A stretch of DNA of 64,000 nt from Bacilli bacterium (GTDB lineage: Bacteria > Bacillota_I > Bacilli_A > RF39 > UBA660). The notes beneath the pieces are model-generated. The model ran no database searches. It saw only the letters and a program-made list of their open reading frames with translations, and was not told the origin of the DNA. The stretch lies in assembly GCA_050948885.1 (NCBI GenBank), contig JBMNER010000003.1:93826-157825 (forward strand), in the 5' to 3' direction. Made by a program: the position numbers and the translations under genes. Of this stretch, positions 56,773 to 61,762 are shown piece by piece; the stretch's first letter is position 1, and each line of letters begins with the position of its first letter.

Positions 56773-57699
56773 CTACTTATAGTAATGTTTTTCCTTATAT
56801 ATCCAAATATTTCGCTCAATTATCTTTTTACCGCGCCAAGAACCTGTCAATAATCCATATTGCGTTTTAAATTCTTTATTAGATAGCGGTTGATACTCTA
56901 AGGCATTAATAAATTCTAAGTCACTGGGAATAAATTCTTTATTACTTAATGAGTTAATCTCCTTATTATATGGGCAACATCGTTGACATATATCACACCC
57001 ATAAATACAATTATTCATCATCCGCTTTTCCCAGTCAGTTAAAACGCCTCGCTTTTGCGTAATATACGATAGACACCGCTTACTATTCAAAAGCCCTGTT
57101 TCGTTAAGAGCTTGGGTAGGACACTTAGCTAAACAAATATTACAACCCAAACAGCCCTTATTTAATGGCTTGTCCTTTTTTAATTCTAAATTAGTCAATA
57201 ATAAACCAATAAAAAAATAAGAGCCATATTCCTGATTAATCAACAGACCATTTTTACCATAAAAACCTAACCCCGATTGATAAGCAAAATACCGCTCATC
57301 TAACGGGGATGTATCAACCACTATTTGATAAGTAAAGTTAGGGGTACTATTTTTAATATAACTAGCTAGCCTATTTAATTTTCTTCTTAAAACCCGATGA
57401 TAATCTTCACCCCAAGAACAATTACCAAAATAAACCGCTTCTTTTCTTATTTGTTTTAGTCGGTTACAAGTTTTCGGATAACTTAAACCAACTACCATAA
57501 TGGTTTTAACATCGTCCATAATTAAAGCGGGATTTGTTTTTTCTTCTATTGAGTAATTCTCAAAAGAACAAAGAAAATTTAATTGTTCCTTTTGTTTTAA
57601 TCGTAAAATTAAATCATCATTAACCTTACTATCAGTAAAGCCAATTAAATCAATACCAATCTGCTTACTATAATTTATTATTGACTGCTTTAGATCCAT
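56773..57699 (-). CDS. queG: epoxyqueuosine reductase
   Basis: 4Fe-4S motifs CLGCNICLAKCP and CIYGCDICQRCCP; QueG-type N-terminal domain. Confidence 0.8.
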   Translation of the reverse strand: MDLKQSIINYSKQIGIDLIGFTDSKVNDDLILRLKQKEQLNFLCSFENYSIEEKTNPALIMDDVKTIMVVGLSYPKTCNRLKQIRKEAVYFGNCSWGEDYHRVLRRKLNRLASYIKNSTPNFTYQIVVDTSPLDERYFAYQSGLGFYGKNGLLINQEYGSYFFIGLLLTNLELKKDKPLNKGCLGCNICLAKCPTQALNETGLLNSKRCLSYITQKRGVLTDWEKRMMNNCIYGCDICQRCCPYNKEINSLSNKEFIPSDLEFINALEYQPLSNKEFKTQYGLLTGSWRGKKIIERNIWIYKEKHYYK

Positions 57700-57727
57700 C
57701 TTATCACCTAATAAAATTATAACATAC

Positions 57728-58680
57728 CTACTGTTTTAAAACCGCCCCATTATCACAGCGATTACCCCAGCTATCAATTATTTTATTATTTTTATAAACA
57801 CATATTATCTCACAGTTATTGGGGCACTTCATACACTCTATACCCTTTGTTTCAAAATGCATATTTATAAAATTAAAATCAAAACAATGTTCATCATTAG
57901 CTCTTTTAGCTAACAGAGCCACCCCAAAAGCACCCGTTAAATGGCCATATTTATGTACCTTTATTTCCTCCCCAGTTATATCCGCAAAAGCTTTAACCAC
58001 ACCAATATTCTTACTAACGCCACCTTGAAAAACAATTGGTGGTTTAATGTTTTTCCCTTCCCAACATTATTTAAAAAGTTCAGTACGACAGCCCGGCATA
58101 ACCCCGCAATAATATCTTCTTTTTTATGGCCTATTTGGGCCTTATGAACTAAATCTGATTCGGCAAAAACGGTACATCGCGCCGCAATCTTCGTTGGTTT
58201 TTTAGACCTTATGGCCCACTTACCAAAGTCTTCCGGGTGCATACCCAATCTTTTGGCTTGCGATGATAAAAAAGAACCGGTTCCAGCCGCACACAATGTA
58301 TTCATCGCATAATCAACAATAATTCCATTCTCAATCAAAATGATTTTAGAGTCTTGTCCCCCAATCTCAAAAATCGTTCTCACCTCAGGATATAATTCTA
58401 AAGTTCCTATAGCTTGCGCCGTTATTTCGTTTTTGATAACTTGAGCATTTAAAATAGTACCCACTAATTTACGCGCTGAACCAGTGGTACCGACCGCTAC
58501 CACGAGTAAGTCTTTATTCCGCATTTTAACCCATAAATTCTTAAGTAGTTGTTTAACCGCCACAACGGGGTTTCCTTCGGTCCACAAATAATCTTCCGCG
58601 ATAATATTATTATCACTATCAATAATAACCCCTTTGGTTGAAATAGAACCAACATCAACTCCTAAATAACCCTTTTTCAT
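57728..58680 (-). pseudogene. BadF/BadG/BcrA/BcrD (YjiL-type) ATPase activase, split by a frameshift in T5 (58050..58054)
   Basis: N-terminal LGVDVGSISTKGV acetate/sugar-kinase-fold ATPase; corrected join ...NNVGKGK-NIKPPIVFQGGVSKN...; C-terminal Cys cluster CMKCPNNC. Confidence 0.65.
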
Positions 58681-59752: not shown

Positions 59753-59753
59753 T

Positions 59754-60827
59754 TTAATGCCCCCTTTTCATTAATAACATATCATAAAAAGCTTCTAATC
59801 TGGTTAGAACCCCAGCCTCTGAGGTTTGAGCATCAAAACTTAAATATAAAATGGGCATATTATAATCATGACTTATTTTTTGTAACATGGGCATCGCATT
59901 AAGTTCCGGAATACAGGCGAAAGGTTTAATATGAATAACACCATCATATCCTTCTTCCGCAAAAACTTTGGTCTTTGCCACACTATCCGTACCATCCGCC
60001 CCAATTGCATACTTTAGATAGGGATGGGCTTTAACTAACAAATCACGATGGTCCTTTGGTCTTCGAAGTAAAATACGGGTGGCGGTTACTAACCTAGTGA
60101 CCTCGACTCCTTTTTTAGCCATTTGCGATTCCACATAACAATTACTAAACGGCTCAATTGCCACATATACTTCTCCCACAATCCCTACTTTCAAACAATC
60201 AACGGGCTTATTAATTGGTAACTTATTAAAAGCCCTTTGGTATCTTAAAAACAAACGATTTAATTCACCAATATTATTTACTAATTCTATTTCGCCTAGA
60301 AACTTATTATAAAGAAGACCAAAAGAACCTTTTTCAACCTCAAAGCCACTATTTTTATTGACATATTGTTGAATATTCTCAAGACTTTTACTCATGCGAA
60401 TTATAAAATAAAAATAATAAATAAAAAGGAAAAAGTTAAGGCGGGGATTTATTTGTTTTAATTGGCGATAAATATTAGTAACGGTTAATTTATCATTAGA
60501 GACAATCCTAATAAAGGTAAACTTATAACCTAAATCCCTTAGTATTTGTTCTTGAACTTCGGCGTAATAACCAAAACGGCAACCGCCGCCAGCTTGGATT
60601 AAAACAGAGGCCCCTTGATCCAAGGATTCAATAAAGTTACCTAAATTATACTTAAAAGGGACGCAGACCGAATCAGGACTATATTTTGCGCCTATTTCCA
60701 ATGTTTTTTTGGTAATTGGCAAGGGTTTAATAACTTTCATATTTAATAACCTTTTAGCAAAGTAAGCAATCGGCACATGATAATCACCAAGATGAGGGAA
60801 ACTCAAAACGGCCCCTTTTAAAGCCAT
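59754..60827 (-). CDS. 2-hydroxyacyl-CoA dehydratase subunit-like protein (tandem paralog)
   Basis: see previous entry. Confidence 0.5.
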   Translation of the reverse strand: MALKGAVLSFPHLGDYHVPIAYFAKRLLNMKVIKPLPITKKTLEIGAKYSPDSVCVPFKYNLGNFIESLDQGASVLIQAGGGCRFGYYAEVQEQILRDLGYKFTFIRIVSNDKLTVTNIYRQLKQINPRLNFFLFIYYFYFIIRMSKSLENIQQYVNKNSGFEVEKGSFGLLYNKFLGEIELVNNIGELNRLFLRYQRAFNKLPINKPVDCLKVGIVGEVYVAIEPFSNCYVESQMAKKGVEVTRLVTATRILLRRPKDHRDLLVKAHPYLKYAIGADGTDSVAKTKVFAEEGYDGVIHIKPFACIPELNAMPMLQKISHDYNMPILYLSFDAQTSEAGVLTRLEAFYDMLLMKRGH

Positions 60828-61762
60828 TAGGAAACTGCCTCTTGCTTATTTTTTCGGATTTTAATAATATCAATAAAGCTCTCTAATCTAGTATGTAATC
60901 CGGCCTCCCCTTGTAATTCATCAAGTACCAAATTTAACATCGGTACATATTTTATTTTGCGCAAACAGAGTTCATTAACTAATGAATCTGGACCGCAAGG
61001 AAAAGTAGAAATAAAAATAATACCATCAATCTTATCTTGATAATAATCAATCGCCCCAATTAATTCTTTACTATATGTCCAATGTAAAGTTTTAGAAATA
61101 TTTAAAGAGCGTTGACGGGCGACCTTATGATCAACAATATCAGCATAAACGGGCATAATATTATTTTCCATTAAGTATTTAATAATCGGAAACCCCACTA
61201 ACTTATCATAACGATTATAAGGATGAGCCACAATTAACATCTTTAAACACGATTCATTATTAATTAAATCGGCTTGTTGCTTATGAGCTAATTTATCATG
61301 GTGCTTTTGTTTTAACTTGGCTTTAATATAGGCTTTAACAATCAAAAAGAAATTCTTTTTTAAAGCTAAACCCATTTTGATAAAACCCTTTAATTCGCCA
61401 TTTCTCTTTAAAACATCAACATTATAATGAAGAACCTCCTTATGCGGGAAAGTGTTCCGAACAATATCATATAAGGCGTTAAATTTAGTACAAACCGTTT
61501 CCTGACGGGCAAAGTTACAAAATCGGGGCACAAAAATATAGTCAACCTGATTTATAATAGCATAAATATGCCCCATATATATTTTGGCTGACAAACAACT
61601 CTCGTCAATCGAATGATTTATACCCTGATCCATAATTTCTTTATTTGTTTCAGGACTAAGTAAAATATGACAACCCAATTCCTTAAAAAAGCATTCCCAT
61701 AAATACCGATATTTGTAATATAGTAGAGCCCTAGGAATACCAATAATATCCAGCTTAGCCAT
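60827..61762 (-). CDS. more divergent third paralog of the HgdB/YjiM-like family
   Basis: shared C-terminal FPCGPDS...LDELQGEAGLHTRLESFID. Confidence 0.45.
   Translation of the reverse strand: MAKLDIIGIPRALLYYKYRYLWECFFKELGCHILLSPETNKEIMDQGINHSIDESCLSAKIYMGHIYAIINQVDYIFVPRFCNFARQETVCTKFNALYDIVRNTFPHKEVLHYNVDVLKRNGELKGFIKMGLALKKNFFLIVKAYIKAKLKQKHHDKLAHKQQADLINNESCLKMLIVAHPYNRYDKLVGFPIIKYLMENNIMPVYADIVDHKVARQRSLNISKTLHWTYSKELIGAIDYYQDKIDGIIFISTFPCGPDSLVNELCLRKIKYVPMLNLVLDELQGEAGLHTRLESFIDIIKIRKNKQEAVS

What the first reader, a model, noticed from the sequence alone, without database searches (positions are those of the whole stretch)
56773..61762. YjiL/YjiM-like radical-dehydratase-type locus next to queG: frameshifted activase plus three tandem HgdB-like paralogs
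Downstream of queG lie a BadF/BcrA-type ATPase activase (split by a T5 homopolymer frameshift at 58050..58054) and three tandem paralogs of a 2-hydroxyacyl-CoA-dehydratase-subunit-like family. Two of the paralogs show roughly 75-80% nucleotide identity in sampled stretches, indicating recent duplication. No function is established for this family. A tandem array with a possibly phase-variable activase is unusual.
Basis: partly seen in the sequence, partly recalled or inferred. Interest (0 to 1): 0.55.

Follow-up and report, generated by a model that had tools for sequence, protein, structure and literature searches.

The report
Split PlsA-like radical enzyme operon
This is a four-gene operon for an oxygen-sensitive, ATP-powered iron-sulfur "radical" enzyme that is an unfused, uncharacterised cousin of the bacterial plasmalogen/ether-lipid synthases. 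Its activator gene carries a genuine strain-specific frameshift, not a phase-variation switch.

Summary

Three parts of the interpretation fail:
- **Duplication is not recent.** H_A and H_B share 56% amino acids and 65.5% nucleotides. They are never sisters in a tree (0/100 bootstraps).
- **The frameshift is not in the T5 run.** The run has five bases in all six alleles compared. The lesion is an A>G change plus loss of one base at 58055-58057. A second, independent assembly shares it, and at least five others are intact. It is a real strain-level lesion, not phase variation.
- **YjiL/YjiM is not the closest relative.** The closest characterised relative is the PlsA/PlsR/Ger ester-reductase family. 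The activase aligns end to end with Act2 of Listeria PlsA, including a Cys4 tail. Identity is only 23-32%, against 39-55% among true PlsA orthologues.

D-H-B is a widespread, unstudied Bacillota cassette: 546 confirmed genome hits. No other intact D-H-H-B was seen in about 85 loci. queG linkage is lineage synteny only.

Most likely function: an ATP-driven [4Fe-4S] ketyl-radical reductase/dehydratase. The substrate is unknown; a lipid ester is the best guess.

The parts
61802..61831 (-). Promoter-like site (TTGAAT-18-TATAAT) about 40 nt upstream of the D start codon.
   Evidence: Consensus scan only, 10 of 12 matches. Not evidence of function.
61861..61892 (-). Terminator-like hairpin (14 pairs followed by a T-run). 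It ends the upstream thioredoxin-like gene (61929..62222) and so marks the 5' boundary of the operon.
   Evidence: The thioredoxin assignment is PF00085, E 9e-8.
60827..61762 (-). D subunit: stand-alone DUF2229 protein, 311 aa, with the HgdB/HadC/DCCP fold. Three family-invariant Cys: C56 (61597..61595), C91 (61492..61490) and C256 (60997..60995).
   Evidence: PF09989, E 4e-41. AlphaFold2 pLDDT 96; Foldseek hits DCCP 7yyl and HadC 3o3n_B at probability 1.0. The invariant Cys hold in 45 homologues and in PlsA-type D domains. 25% identity over 286 aa with the Listeria PlsA D domain.
59754..60827 (-). H_A subunit: HGD-D-like protein, 357 aa. This is the 'orthodox' copy. Invariant Cys: C55 (60665..60663), C83 (60581..60579) and C305 (59915..59913). 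Its start overlaps the D stop codon by 1 nt.
   Evidence: PF06050 on the C-terminal ~60 aa. AlphaFold2 pLDDT 81; Foldseek hits HadC 3o3n_B at E 2e-9. Sister to P0004 (71% identity) in 100/100 bootstraps. Keeps 78 of 80 family-conserved positions.
58655..59752 (-). H_B subunit: second, divergent HGD-D-like protein, 365 aa. It has the same three Cys: C55 (59590..59588), C83 (59506..59504) and C305 (58840..58838).
   Evidence: 56% identity to H_A with no gaps. A lone long branch, never sister to H_A. Keeps 77 of 80 conserved positions. 23% identity with the H region of Listeria PlsA, all three Cys aligned.
57728..58680 (-). Activase gene (BcrAD_BadFG / acyl-CoA dehydratase activase). It is 317 aa when intact; here it is split into ORFs 58680..57976 (234 aa) and 58000..57728 (90 aa). 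The cysteines that bridge the shared cluster are C130 (58293..58291) and C169 (58176..58174). Its start overlaps the end of H_B by 26 nt.
   Evidence: Intact 317-aa alleles occur in L001, L004 and L098, and in other members of the same protein cluster. 70-76% identical to 120 homologues over the full length.
58055..58060 (-). Frameshift lesion. Intact alleles read AAAGGT; the window reads AAGGG (A>G at 58057 and one base lost). It abuts the invariant A5 run at 58054..58050. The mutant sequence forms the heptamer G_GGA_AAA.
   Evidence: six alleles aligned. The same lesion is present in the independent scaffold FZPS01000101.1 (L097).
57755..57835 (-). C-terminal Cys4 module of the activase: C283-x2-C286-x3-C290 ... 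C309, in the numbering of the intact protein.
   Evidence: 100% conserved in 120 homologues. Also conserved in Act2 of Listeria PlsA and in the Monoglobus cassette activase. Absent from E. coli YjiL and from the Paraclostridium BBD protein.
56773..57699 (-). queG (epoxyqueuosine reductase). It starts 28 nt downstream of the activase stop with no terminator-like site between, so it is probably co-transcribed. It is a neighbour and is not shown to be part of the system.
   Evidence: TIGR00276, 273 bits. No terminator found. The linkage is restricted to close relatives.

Best explanation
**What it is.** The locus is an operon D - H_A - H_B - B. It encodes an unfused, single-activase member of the DUF2229-containing (PlsA/PlsR/Ger-like) branch of the benzoyl-CoA reductase / 2-hydroxyacyl-CoA dehydratase radical-enzyme superfamily.

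**Inferred mechanism** (from the established chemistry of that superfamily):
1. The activase dimerises around one [4Fe-4S] cluster, held by Cys130 and Cys169 of each monomer.
2. It accepts a low-potential electron from ferredoxin or flavodoxin.
3. It uses ATP hydrolysis to push that electron into the catalytic heterodimer.
4. D and H each carry a three-Cys [4Fe-4S] site with an open iron. That iron binds a substrate carbonyl oxygen and forms a ketyl radical, which allows reduction and/or dehydration.

**Subunits.** D and H act as a pair. They are adjacent in all but a few truncated contigs among about 85 loci examined, and they are fused into one protein in several organisms. This lineage has two divergent H subunits, both under purifying selection. 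They probably form alternative D-H_A and D-H_B enzymes.

**Substrate.** It is not known. The only characterised relatives reduce the sn-1 acyl ester of phospholipids to vinyl or alkyl ethers, so a lipid or other acyl ester is the best guess. The cassette is not an orthologue of PlsA.

**Activase lesion.** In the strain of this window the activase carries a real, inherited frameshift. The system is either switched off here, or depends on rare -1 slippage at G_GGA_AAA, or on another activase encoded elsewhere.

The gene content, folds, Cys sites, distribution and allele history are shown. The electron-transfer mechanism, subunit pairing and substrate are inferred.
For: - **Domain assignments:**
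- **Operon packing:** 1-nt and 26-nt gene overlaps, a promoter-like site and an upstream terminator.
- **Fold:** both D and H have the HadC/DCCP/BzdNO/MbdON fold. D and H are homologous over 304 columns.
- **Fe-S sites:** three invariant Cys in D and three in H, also kept in PlsA-type proteins. The activase bridging Cys are invariant.
- **Alignment with a PlsA-type protein.** The B-B-D-H fusion protein of Listeria monocytogenes is the only DUF2229 locus in that 2.9-Mb record. Against it:
  - the activase aligns with Act2 at 32% identity, E 1e-45, end to end including the Cys4 tail;
  - D aligns at 25% over 286 aa;
  - H aligns at 23%, N- and C-terminal parts together.
- **PlsA and Ger are defined by PF01869 + PF09989 + PF06050** and shown to make plasmalogens or alkyl ethers (PMC13159169; PMC12838417; PMC8788747).
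- **Conserved cassette:** D-H-B in Desulfitobacterium, Clostridium, Monoglobus, Desulfosporosinus, Christensenellaceae, Defluviitaleaceae, Bacilli MAGs and others. There are 546 tblastn-confirmed genome hits and 2272 representative clusters.
- **D-H fusion proteins** of 671-747 aa exist.
- **Both H paralogs keep 77-78 of 80 conserved positions**.
- **The frameshift is shared by two independent assemblies** and is linked to a distinct haplotype whose intact form exists.
Against: - No member of the stand-alone cassette has been studied, and the literature searches found nothing on it.
- Identity to PlsA-type proteins is low (23-32%). True PlsA orthologues share 39-55% across phyla, so function cannot be transferred.
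- No BBD fusion protein appears among the 150 best representative clusters for D.
- The neighbourhood shows no consistent lipid genes. A CDP-alcohol phosphatidyltransferase lies upstream only in close relatives.
- About 25 of 80 loci have D-H but no activase within 6 kb. The three-part model is therefore not universal.
- Fe-S binding, heterodimer formation and alternative pairing of H_A and H_B are untested.
Confidence: 0.6

Rival explanations
1. It is an isofunctional, split-gene plasmalogen (or alkyl-ether) synthase. D+H+B would do exactly what PlsA/PlsR or Ger do, and H_A and H_B would give two product or substrate specificities.
For: - Same three Pfam modules and the same Cys sites.
- The Cys4 tail is shared with PlsA Act2.
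- One activase gene can give a homodimer equivalent to the fused Act1-Act2 pair.
- In the Ger/PlsA literature, product differences are ascribed to the variable part after BBD, which is the H region (PMC13159169).
- Close relatives have a CDP-alcohol phosphatidyltransferase gene 2-3 genes upstream.
- In the PLSDB-held Monoglobus records, the cassette is the only DUF2229 locus.
Against: - 23-32% identity, against 39-55% among PlsA orthologues from different phyla.
- The cassette forms its own large clade of stand-alone proteins.
- It occurs in Clostridium species. That genus is reported to carry canonical plsA/plsR (PMC9702350), which suggests a paralogous and different role. Co-occurrence in a single genome was not tested here.
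- The lipid-gene context is not conserved.
Confidence: 0.17
2. It is a soluble small-molecule or acyl-CoA enzyme. That could be a 2-hydroxyacyl-CoA dehydratase, as the PGAP product names say, or a YjiL/YjiM (DCCP)-type reductase.
For: - PGAP names it '2-hydroxyacyl-CoA dehydratase' and 'acyl-CoA dehydratase activase'.
- The best solved-structure matches are HadC and DCCP.
- YjiL is 31% identical to the activase core.
Against: - Only the last ~60 aa match PF06050, HadC, DCCP or YjiM by sequence.
- The HadC equivalog NF052456 scores 17-21 bits against a cut-off of 700.
- No CoA-transferase or 2-hydroxyacid dehydrogenase genes lie nearby.
- The D subunit is DUF2229, which HAD and DCCP systems lack.
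- The Cys4 tail is absent from YjiL.
Confidence: 0.12
3. The frameshift is an assembly or sequencing artefact, and the activase is intact in the real organism.
For: - All short-read assemblies of near-identical strains are intact (L001, L002, L004, L098).
- One contig (L003), 100% identical to the window, ends at 58091, exactly where a cluster of SNPs begins. Assembly is therefore fragile there.
- Similar split genes occur in 3 of 80 MAG loci.
Against: - The same lesion sits in an independent scaffold (GCA_900198705.1) that differs from the window by 4 SNPs in 2.7 kb.
- The lesion is a substitution plus a 1-nt loss, not a homopolymer miscount.
- It is linked to three further private SNPs shared by the two assemblies (58001, 57914, 57868).
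Confidence: 0.15
4. The frameshift is a regulatory device. It would work either as phase variation at the T5/A5 run or as programmed -1 ribosomal frameshifting at G_GGA_AAA, which would restore the exact wild-type protein.
For: - The mutant sequence forms a canonical X_XXY_YYZ heptamer. A -1 slip yields GKGKNIKPP..., identical to the intact alleles.
- Activases of this superfamily are needed only in catalytic amounts. This rests on established knowledge of HgdC-type activators and was not tested here.
Against: - The run length is 5 in all six alleles, so there is no length polymorphism.
- Five bases is shorter than known contingency tracts.
- All other strains, and 120 homologues, encode the protein in one frame.
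- There is no stimulatory structure downstream (MFE z-score -0.29).
- Any 1-nt loss beside a run tends to create such a heptamer by chance.
Confidence: 0.04
5. The cassette works in queuosine / 7-deazaguanine metabolism, as its queG neighbour might suggest.
For: - queG follows the activase by 28 nt with no terminator.
- queG is adjacent or within a few genes in three related MAG lineages.
- In a different lineage, 18 gut Bacilli/Erysipelotrichaceae MAG loci have D-H followed by two tandem YhhQ-family genes. These score 62-66 bits on TIGR00697 'queuosine precursor transporter' (cut-off 51).
Against: - These are only two independent lineage-level associations among roughly 20-30 lineages sampled. 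By my rough estimate, that is about what chance gives for a pathway of around ten genes.
- Unrelated genes (ABC-F, a methyltransferase, a JAB protein) are inserted between the cassette and queG in relatives.
- No Q gene lies near the cassette in Clostridia.
- No step of the queuosine pathway is known to need such an enzyme.
Confidence: 0.04

Closest known systems
PlsA/PlsR plasmalogen synthase (C. perfringens CPE1194/1195, UniProt Q8XL48/Q8XL47; single-gene PlsA of E. faecalis EF1327; the Listeria orthologue in L009) and Ger glycerol ester reductase (T. maritima Tmari_0479)
   Same: - Same three modules: PF01869 activase, PF09989 (D) and an HGD-D-like C-terminal module (H).
- Three aligned Cys in D and three in H.
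- The activase aligns end to end with Act2, including the CxxCxxxC...C tail that precedes D in the fusion protein.
- Found in anaerobes.

   Different: - Three or four separate genes in the order D-H(-H')-B, instead of one B-B-D(-H) polypeptide.
- One activase domain instead of two.
- 23-32% identity, where PlsA orthologues share 39-55%.
- It forms a separate, large clade of stand-alone proteins.
- No functional data exist for it.
- Here there are two H subunits.
2-Hydroxyacyl-CoA dehydratases with their activators (HadBC-HadI, PDB 3O3M; HgdAB-HgdC)
   Same: - Same fold for the catalytic subunits, with a heterodimer of two distant paralogs.
- Three-Cys [4Fe-4S] sites.
- An ATP-dependent activase with two bridging Cys.

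   Different: - Sequence similarity is confined to the last ~60 residues.
- The HadC equivalog score is far below its cut-off.
- One subunit is DUF2229.
- The activase has an extra Cys4 tail.
- There is no CoA-transferase or dehydrogenase context.
Double-cubane cluster protein DCCP with DCCP-R (PDB 6ENO, 7YYL), and E. coli YjiM/YjiL
   Same: Same fold (Foldseek probability 1.0, TM 0.53-0.58). An activase plus a reductase, encoded side by side.
   Different: - DCCP and YjiM are a single catalytic subunit, not a D/H pair.
- YjiM aligns with H only over 63 C-terminal residues, and with D not significantly.
- YjiL (255 aa) lacks the Cys4 tail.
Class I benzoyl-CoA reductases (BzdNOPQ, PDB 8S02; MbdONPQ, PDB 9G87)
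   Same: The catalytic subunits share the fold. The activase shares the family with BcrA/D and BzdQ.
   Different: BCRs have two different ATPase subunits and act on aromatic CoA thioesters. Scores against the BCR equivalogs are far below their cut-offs.

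Membership tests
BCR/HAD/DCCP radical-enzyme superfamily | ATPase activase of the BcrAD_BadFG family with two conserved Cys that bridge a [4Fe-4S] cluster in the dimer | tested here: met
   PF01869, E 8e-41. C130 and C169 are invariant in 120 homologues, Listeria PlsA, Monoglobus and YjiL. In this window the ORF is interrupted.
BCR/HAD/DCCP radical-enzyme superfamily | Catalytic subunit(s) with the HgdB/HadC/DCCP/BcrB fold | tested here: met
   The AlphaFold2 models of D (pLDDT 96) and H_A (pLDDT 81) hit 3o3n_B, 7yyl, 6eno, 8s02 and 9g87 at probability 1.0, with TM 0.5-0.58.
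BCR/HAD/DCCP radical-enzyme superfamily | Fe-S cluster ligands (three Cys) in each catalytic subunit | tested here: met
   D: C56, C91 and C256. H: C55, C83 and C305. All are invariant in the alignments. Actual cluster binding cannot be tested with these tools.
2-hydroxyacyl-CoA dehydratase sensu stricto (HgdAB, HadBC, FldBC, LcdAB) | Full-length match to PF06050 or to the NCBIfam equivalogs | tested here: not met
   PF06050 matches only residues ~290-351, at 28.0 and 28.9 bits against a cut-off of 28.4. NF052456 scores 16.8 and 21.4 bits against a cut-off of 700. The PDB profile search matches only the C-terminal ~60 aa.
2-hydroxyacyl-CoA dehydratase sensu stricto | Genomic association with a CoA-transferase and a 2-hydroxyacid dehydrogenase (amino-acid fermentation operon) | tested here: not met
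   The neighbours are thioredoxin, YitT, FeoB, queG, a PedC-like protein and unknown secreted proteins. No such genes recur in about 85 related loci.
PlsA/PlsR/Ger ester reductases | Presence of PF01869 + PF09989 + PF06050-like modules acting together | tested here: met
   All three are encoded in one tightly packed operon. D-H fusion proteins exist elsewhere.
PlsA/PlsR/Ger ester reductases | 'BBD' architecture: two activase domains fused to DUF2229 in one polypeptide. PMC13159169 reports this as conserved in all confirmed ether-lipid producers. | tested here: not met
   There is a single activase gene at the 3' end of the operon, and D is a separate 311-aa protein at the 5' end. No BBD protein is among the 150 best representative clusters for D.
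PlsA/PlsR/Ger ester reductases | Orthologue-level sequence similarity | tested here: not met
   The cassette is 25% (D), 23% (H) and 32% (B) identical to Listeria PlsA. PlsA-type proteins of Acetoanaerobium, Collinsella, Subdoligranulum, Fusobacterium and Haliovirga are 39-55% identical to it.
PlsA/PlsR/Ger ester reductases | Cys4 motif (CxxCxxxC...C) directly after the second activase domain | tested here: met
   C283, C286, C290 and C309 align with the Listeria Act2-D linker, and are 100% conserved in the cassette family.
PlsA/PlsR/Ger ester reductases | Conversion of sn-1 acyl esters to vinyl or alkyl ethers under anoxic conditions | not testable with these tools
   Needs anaerobic heterologous expression and lipid analysis, as in PMC13159169 and PMC12838417.
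YjiL/YjiM (DCCP-R/DCCP) | A single YjiM/DCCP-like catalytic subunit with full-length similarity | tested here: not met
   H_B against YjiM: only 63 C-terminal residues align (33%, E 2e-6). D against YjiM: E 0.04.
Phase-variable (contingency) gene | A simple-sequence tract whose length differs between on and off alleles | tested here: not met
   The A5/T5 run has 5 bases in the window and in L001, L002, L004, L097 and L098. On and off alleles differ by A>G plus loss of a T beside the run.

The most novel reading that the evidence does not exclude
The stand-alone D-H-B cassette is a functionally distinct, widespread, three-component ATP-driven radical reductase. Searches for ether-lipid genes that require the fused 'BBD' architecture may overlook it.

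In this lineage one D subunit and one activase would serve two divergent H subunits. That would give two enzymes with different substrate or product specificity, for example vinyl-ether against alkyl-ether formation, or a non-lipid ester.

If true, it would extend the known genetic basis of anaerobic ether-lipid (or related reductive) chemistry to many Clostridia, Bacilli and gut MAG lineages.
Probability: 0.15. Interest if true: 0.7.

Novelty: new variant of a known kind. Interest (0 to 1): 0.4.

Why it matters
PlsA/PlsR and Ger are the only known anaerobic route from ester to ether lipids. They are used to predict which bacteria make plasmalogens and the ether lipids behind palaeoclimate proxies.

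Those predictions rely on the fused B-B-D architecture. An unfused D-H-B cassette has the same modules, the same Cys sites and the same Cys4 tail. It is present in hundreds of Bacillota genomes and is annotated only generically.

- If it has the same or a related activity, current surveys under-count the capacity.
- If it has a different substrate, it is a new reaction for a chemically remarkable enzyme class.

The window itself adds two natural experiments. One is a lineage with two H subunits. The other is a strain clade in which only the activase is broken.

As it stands the locus is an uncharacterised member of a known superfamily.

Tried and rejected
- **Recent duplication: rejected.** Tested with a codon-wise comparison and NJ bootstraps.
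- **Gene conversion in the similar stretches: rejected.** Third-position identity at identical residues is not specially raised in codons 51-100 (72%) compared with neighbouring windows (45-85%). The similar stretches coincide with the family's most conserved segments.
- **Homopolymer slip / phase variation: rejected** from a six-allele alignment.
- **Stimulatory RNA structure for -1 frameshifting: not found**.
- **Sequence search of PDB with D and H profiles:** only C-terminal matches, so fold search was needed.
- **Jackson et al. 2021 (PMC7812594):** not held in the library.
- **Literature searches** for COG3580/COG3581, the PGAP product name and DUF2229 found nothing on the stand-alone cassette.
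The genome scan therefore returned only cassette-type loci. Co-occurrence with canonical plsA in one genome could not be tested.
- **AFDB fold search:** unavailable.
- **Conserved neighbours:** clustering the flanking ORFs gave only lineage-level synteny.
- **Other copies in the window:** no second D, H or B copy and no YhhQ-like gene anywhere in the 64 kb.

Full report
**1. What is in the sequence**

Between 56773 and 61762 all genes lie on the minus strand. In the order of transcription they are:

| Gene | Coordinates | Size |
|---|---|---|
| D | 61762..60827 | 311 aa |
| H_A | 60827..59754 | 357 aa |
| H_B | 59752..58655 | 365 aa |
| Activase (two ORFs) | 58680..57976 and 58000..57728 | 234 + 90 aa |
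| queG | 57699..56773 | 308 aa |

- The genes overlap or abut: D/H_A by 1 nt, and H_B/activase by 26 nt.
- A terminator-like hairpin (61892..61861) closes the upstream thioredoxin-like gene.
- A promoter-like site (61831..61802) precedes D.
- Nothing terminator-like separates the activase from queG.

Family assignments:
- D is DUF2229 (PF09989, E 4e-41).
- Both H proteins touch PF06050 only with their last ~60 residues, at the gathering threshold.
- The activase is PF01869. When repaired it scores 188.8 bits on TIGR00241 'acyl-CoA dehydratase activase'.
- queG scores 273 bits on TIGR00276.

It needs three corrections, set out in sections 2 and 3.

**2. 'Three paralogs' and 'recent duplication'**

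H_A and H_B are 56% identical without gaps. D shares only its last ~65 residues with them by BLAST.

At profile level D and H are nevertheless homologous end to end: hhalign gives probability 99.4% over 304 columns at 17% identity. AlphaFold2 models of both (pLDDT 96 and 81) hit the same solved structures at Foldseek probability 1.0:
- HadC (3O3M/3O3N chain B);
- the double-cubane protein DCCP (6ENO, 7YYL);
- BzdNO (8S02);
- MbdON (9G87).

D and H thus relate as the alpha and beta subunits of such enzymes do, and H is present twice.

The duplication is old:
- Nucleotide identity is 65.5% overall and 51% at third codon positions.
- It reaches 80-84% only in codons 51-100 and 301-350, the segments most conserved in the whole family.
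- In an NJ tree of the closest homologues, H_A is sister to a protein from another metagenome (P0004, 71% identity) in 100/100 bootstraps.
- H_A and H_B are sisters in 0/100. H_B is a lone long branch.
- Both copies keep 77-78 of the 80 positions that are at least 95% conserved in 118 homologues, including all three Cys. Both therefore look functional.

**3. The frameshift**

Near-identical contigs from other assemblies encode an intact activase:
- L001/L005 (JGI, a 226-kb contig);
- L004 and L098 (Logan assemblies);
- L002 (JGI), whose contig ends inside the gene but reads through the lesion site in frame.

The 90% identity cluster holds at least five more intact versions.

Aligning six alleles gives this picture:
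- The intact alleles read GGG AAA GGT AAA AAC (G K G K N).
- The window reads GGGAAGGGAAAAAC.
- The lesion is A>G at 58057 plus loss of the T that precedes the run.

The window differs from L001 by only 8 substitutions and this one indel in 11.3 kb. Seven of the substitutions lie within 57868..58090. Those at 58081, 58087 and 58090 are synonymous. L098 carries the same three synonymous changes with an intact frame, so it shows the parental haplotype.

An independent NCBI scaffold (FZPS01000101.1, GCA_900198705.1; L097) has the same lesion and the same 234 + 90 aa ORFs. It differs from the window by 4 SNPs in 2.7 kb and has an N-gap inside H_B.

I therefore read the frameshift as a real mutation shared by a small strain clade. 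It is not a homopolymer miscount and not a phase-variation switch. An artefact remains possible at about 15%, because reads were not available.

The mutant sequence happens to form G_GGA_AAA. A -1 slip there would restore exactly the wild-type protein. There is no downstream structure, and every other allele and homologue is in one frame. I treat this as a by-product that might allow leaky expression at most.

**4. What the system is**

*Fe-S sites.*
- The H family has three invariant Cys: C55, C83 and C305.
- The D family has three at equivalent places: C56, C91 and C256.
- The activase keeps the two Cys (C130, C169) that bridge the [4Fe-4S] cluster in HgdC-type dimers.
- The activase also has a C-terminal CxxCxxxC...C module that is 100% conserved in 120 homologues.

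*Characterised relatives.* The only characterised proteins containing DUF2229 are:
- the plasmalogen synthase PlsA/PlsR of C. perfringens, which is a single PlsA protein in Enterococcus, Lactococcus, Bifidobacterium and Listeria;
- the glycerol ester reductase Ger of Thermotoga.

Their architecture is written B-B-D(+H) in the literature (PMC13159169, PMC12838417, PMC8788747, PMC9702350).

*Comparison with a PlsA-type protein.* I recovered a PlsA-type protein from a Listeria monocytogenes record (L009, 1475 aa, B-B-D-H). It is the only DUF2229 locus in the 2.9-Mb Listeria record.

| Window protein | Region of Listeria PlsA | Identity |
|---|---|---|
| Activase, whole length including the Cys4 module | Act2 | 32%, E 1e-45 |
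| D, 286 aa | D domain | 25% |
| H, N- and C-terminal parts, three Cys matched | C-terminal region | 23% |

Across stand-alone and PlsA-type D domains the three Cys stay invariant, together with E54, K60, H65, D74, Y182, D186, D281 and R292.

By contrast, E. coli YjiM aligns only over 63 C-terminal residues, and YjiL lacks the Cys4 tail. The architecture-level relative is thus PlsA/Ger, not YjiLM or HgdAB.

**5. It is not an orthologue of PlsA**

- PlsA-type proteins from Acetoanaerobium, Collinsella, Subdoligranulum, Fusobacterium and Haliovirga are 39-55% identical to the Listeria protein. The cassette type reaches 23-32%.
- A HMMER search with D against 1.84 billion cluster representatives gave 2272 hits. 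The best 150 (E below 3e-43) are nearly all stand-alone ~300-340 aa proteins plus five D-H fusions of 671-747 aa (confirmed). None is a BBD fusion.
- The cassette is a separate, large clade.

**6. Distribution and context**

- The 3-gene form D-H-B occurs in Desulfitobacterium chlororespirans, Clostridium sp., Monoglobus pectinilyticus and several Bacilli MAGs. PGAP names the three products 'acyl-CoA dehydratase activase-related protein', '2-hydroxyacyl-CoA dehydratase' and 'acyl-CoA dehydratase activase'.
- A scan of one genome per species found 546 confirmed relatives of D. The 80 best came from Clostridia, Bacilli, Erysipelotrichia, Defluviitaleaceae, Oscillospiraceae, Christensenellaceae, Desulfitobacteriaceae and others.
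- Classifying their ORFs with custom HMMs gave:
  - D-H adjacent in all but a few truncated contigs, with H split by a frameshift in two loci;
  - B directly downstream in about 50 loci;
  - no B within 6 kb in about 25 loci;
  - no other intact D-H-H-B.
- queG lies within the flank only in the window lineage and two related MAGs, and just beyond it in a third. Unrelated genes are inserted between in two of them. The queG linkage is lineage synteny.
- No neighbour family recurs beyond single lineages.

**7. Mechanism**

From the established chemistry of the BCR/HAD family (named as such in PMC12838417, its references 47-49), I infer the following:
1. The activase forms a homodimer that holds a [4Fe-4S] cluster.
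2. It takes an electron from ferredoxin or flavodoxin.
3. Driven by ATP hydrolysis, it injects that electron into the D-H heterodimer.
4. A three-Cys cluster there binds a carbonyl oxygen and generates a ketyl radical.

One activase gene giving a homodimer is the natural equivalent of the fused Act1-Act2 pair of PlsA. D-H fusion proteins support a D-H complex.

Two H subunits suggest two alternative enzymes sharing D and B. In the Ger/PlsA literature the part after BBD is the variable one, and it is linked to product type (PMC13159169).

The substrate is unknown. A lipid or other acyl ester is the best guess by homology, at perhaps one chance in four overall.

In the window's strain the activase is broken while D, H_A and H_B are identical to those of intact strains. 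That indicates a recent loss, or reliance on another activase.

**8. Verdict**

The locus is a new variant (unfused, single-activase, duplicated H) of a known kind of enzyme system. The family is widespread, annotated only generically, and unstudied, which gives it moderate interest.

Noticed in passing
window 32137..28537 (minus strand): A T-box leader (RF00230, 136 bits; 32137..31898) is followed after ~25 nt by a tRNA-Asn(GTT) gene (31873..31798). Then come gatC (31748..31428), gatA (31426..29954) and gatB (29961..28537). A tRNA gene thus sits between a T-box riboswitch and the amidotransferase operon that would make Asn-tRNA(Asn).
   Followed up: partly
L024, L027, L030, L032, L034, L038, L044, L049, L051, L059, L069, L072, L076, L078, L082, L083, L087, L089 (about 80-110 nt, or one gene, after H): In 18 gut 'uncultured Bacilli'/Erysipelotrichaceae MAG loci the D-H pair has no activase within 6 kb. 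It is followed by two tandem YhhQ/Vut_1-family membrane proteins. The second copy scores 62-66 bits on TIGR00697 'queuosine precursor transporter' (cut-off 51) in the two loci that clear it (L072, L038). Together with queG in the window lineage, this is a second queuosine-related neighbour, but each association is a single lineage-level event.
   Followed up: partly
window 57868..58090; L003 contig end = window 58091: Seven of the 8 substitutions between the window and a 99.9% identical contig (11.3 kb compared) are packed into 223 nt of the activase gene. Another contig, 100% identical to the window, ends exactly where this patch starts. It looks like a small recombination or hypervariable tract within an otherwise clonal population.
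   Followed up: partly
L025 (H), L029 (B), L043 (H): Other MAG loci also show cassette genes split into two ORFs. Frameshifted cassette genes, or assembly errors, occur in about 3 of 80 loci.
   Followed up: no
L041 and L043 (MAG Clostridiales bacterium GWE2_32_10): One genome carries two cassettes on different contigs. One is an intact D-H-B. The other has D plus a split H and no activase.
   Followed up: no
L012:1985-2566, L013:2540-3058, L015:2516-3232: Close relatives have a CDP-alcohol phosphatidyltransferase gene (PF01066, phospholipid head-group synthesis) 2-3 genes upstream of D, between YitT and thioredoxin. The window lineage lacks it at that place.
   Followed up: no
L010:4189-8037 (Paraclostridium bifermentans plasmid pHD0315_2-2): A plasmid-borne 1282-aa B-B-D-type protein lacks the Cys4 module after Act2. 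It sits next to an ABC transporter, cupins, hemerythrin, ferredoxin and hcp. It is a further, divergent DUF2229 architecture.
   Followed up: no
window 53247..56035 (minus strand): Two proteins with N-terminal hydrophobic segments (240 aa and 689 aa) have no Pfam hit at E 0.001; a precomputed record lists only a weak PXO2_28_C hit. They lie downstream of the PedC-like gene and are conserved in the near-identical contigs.
   Followed up: no
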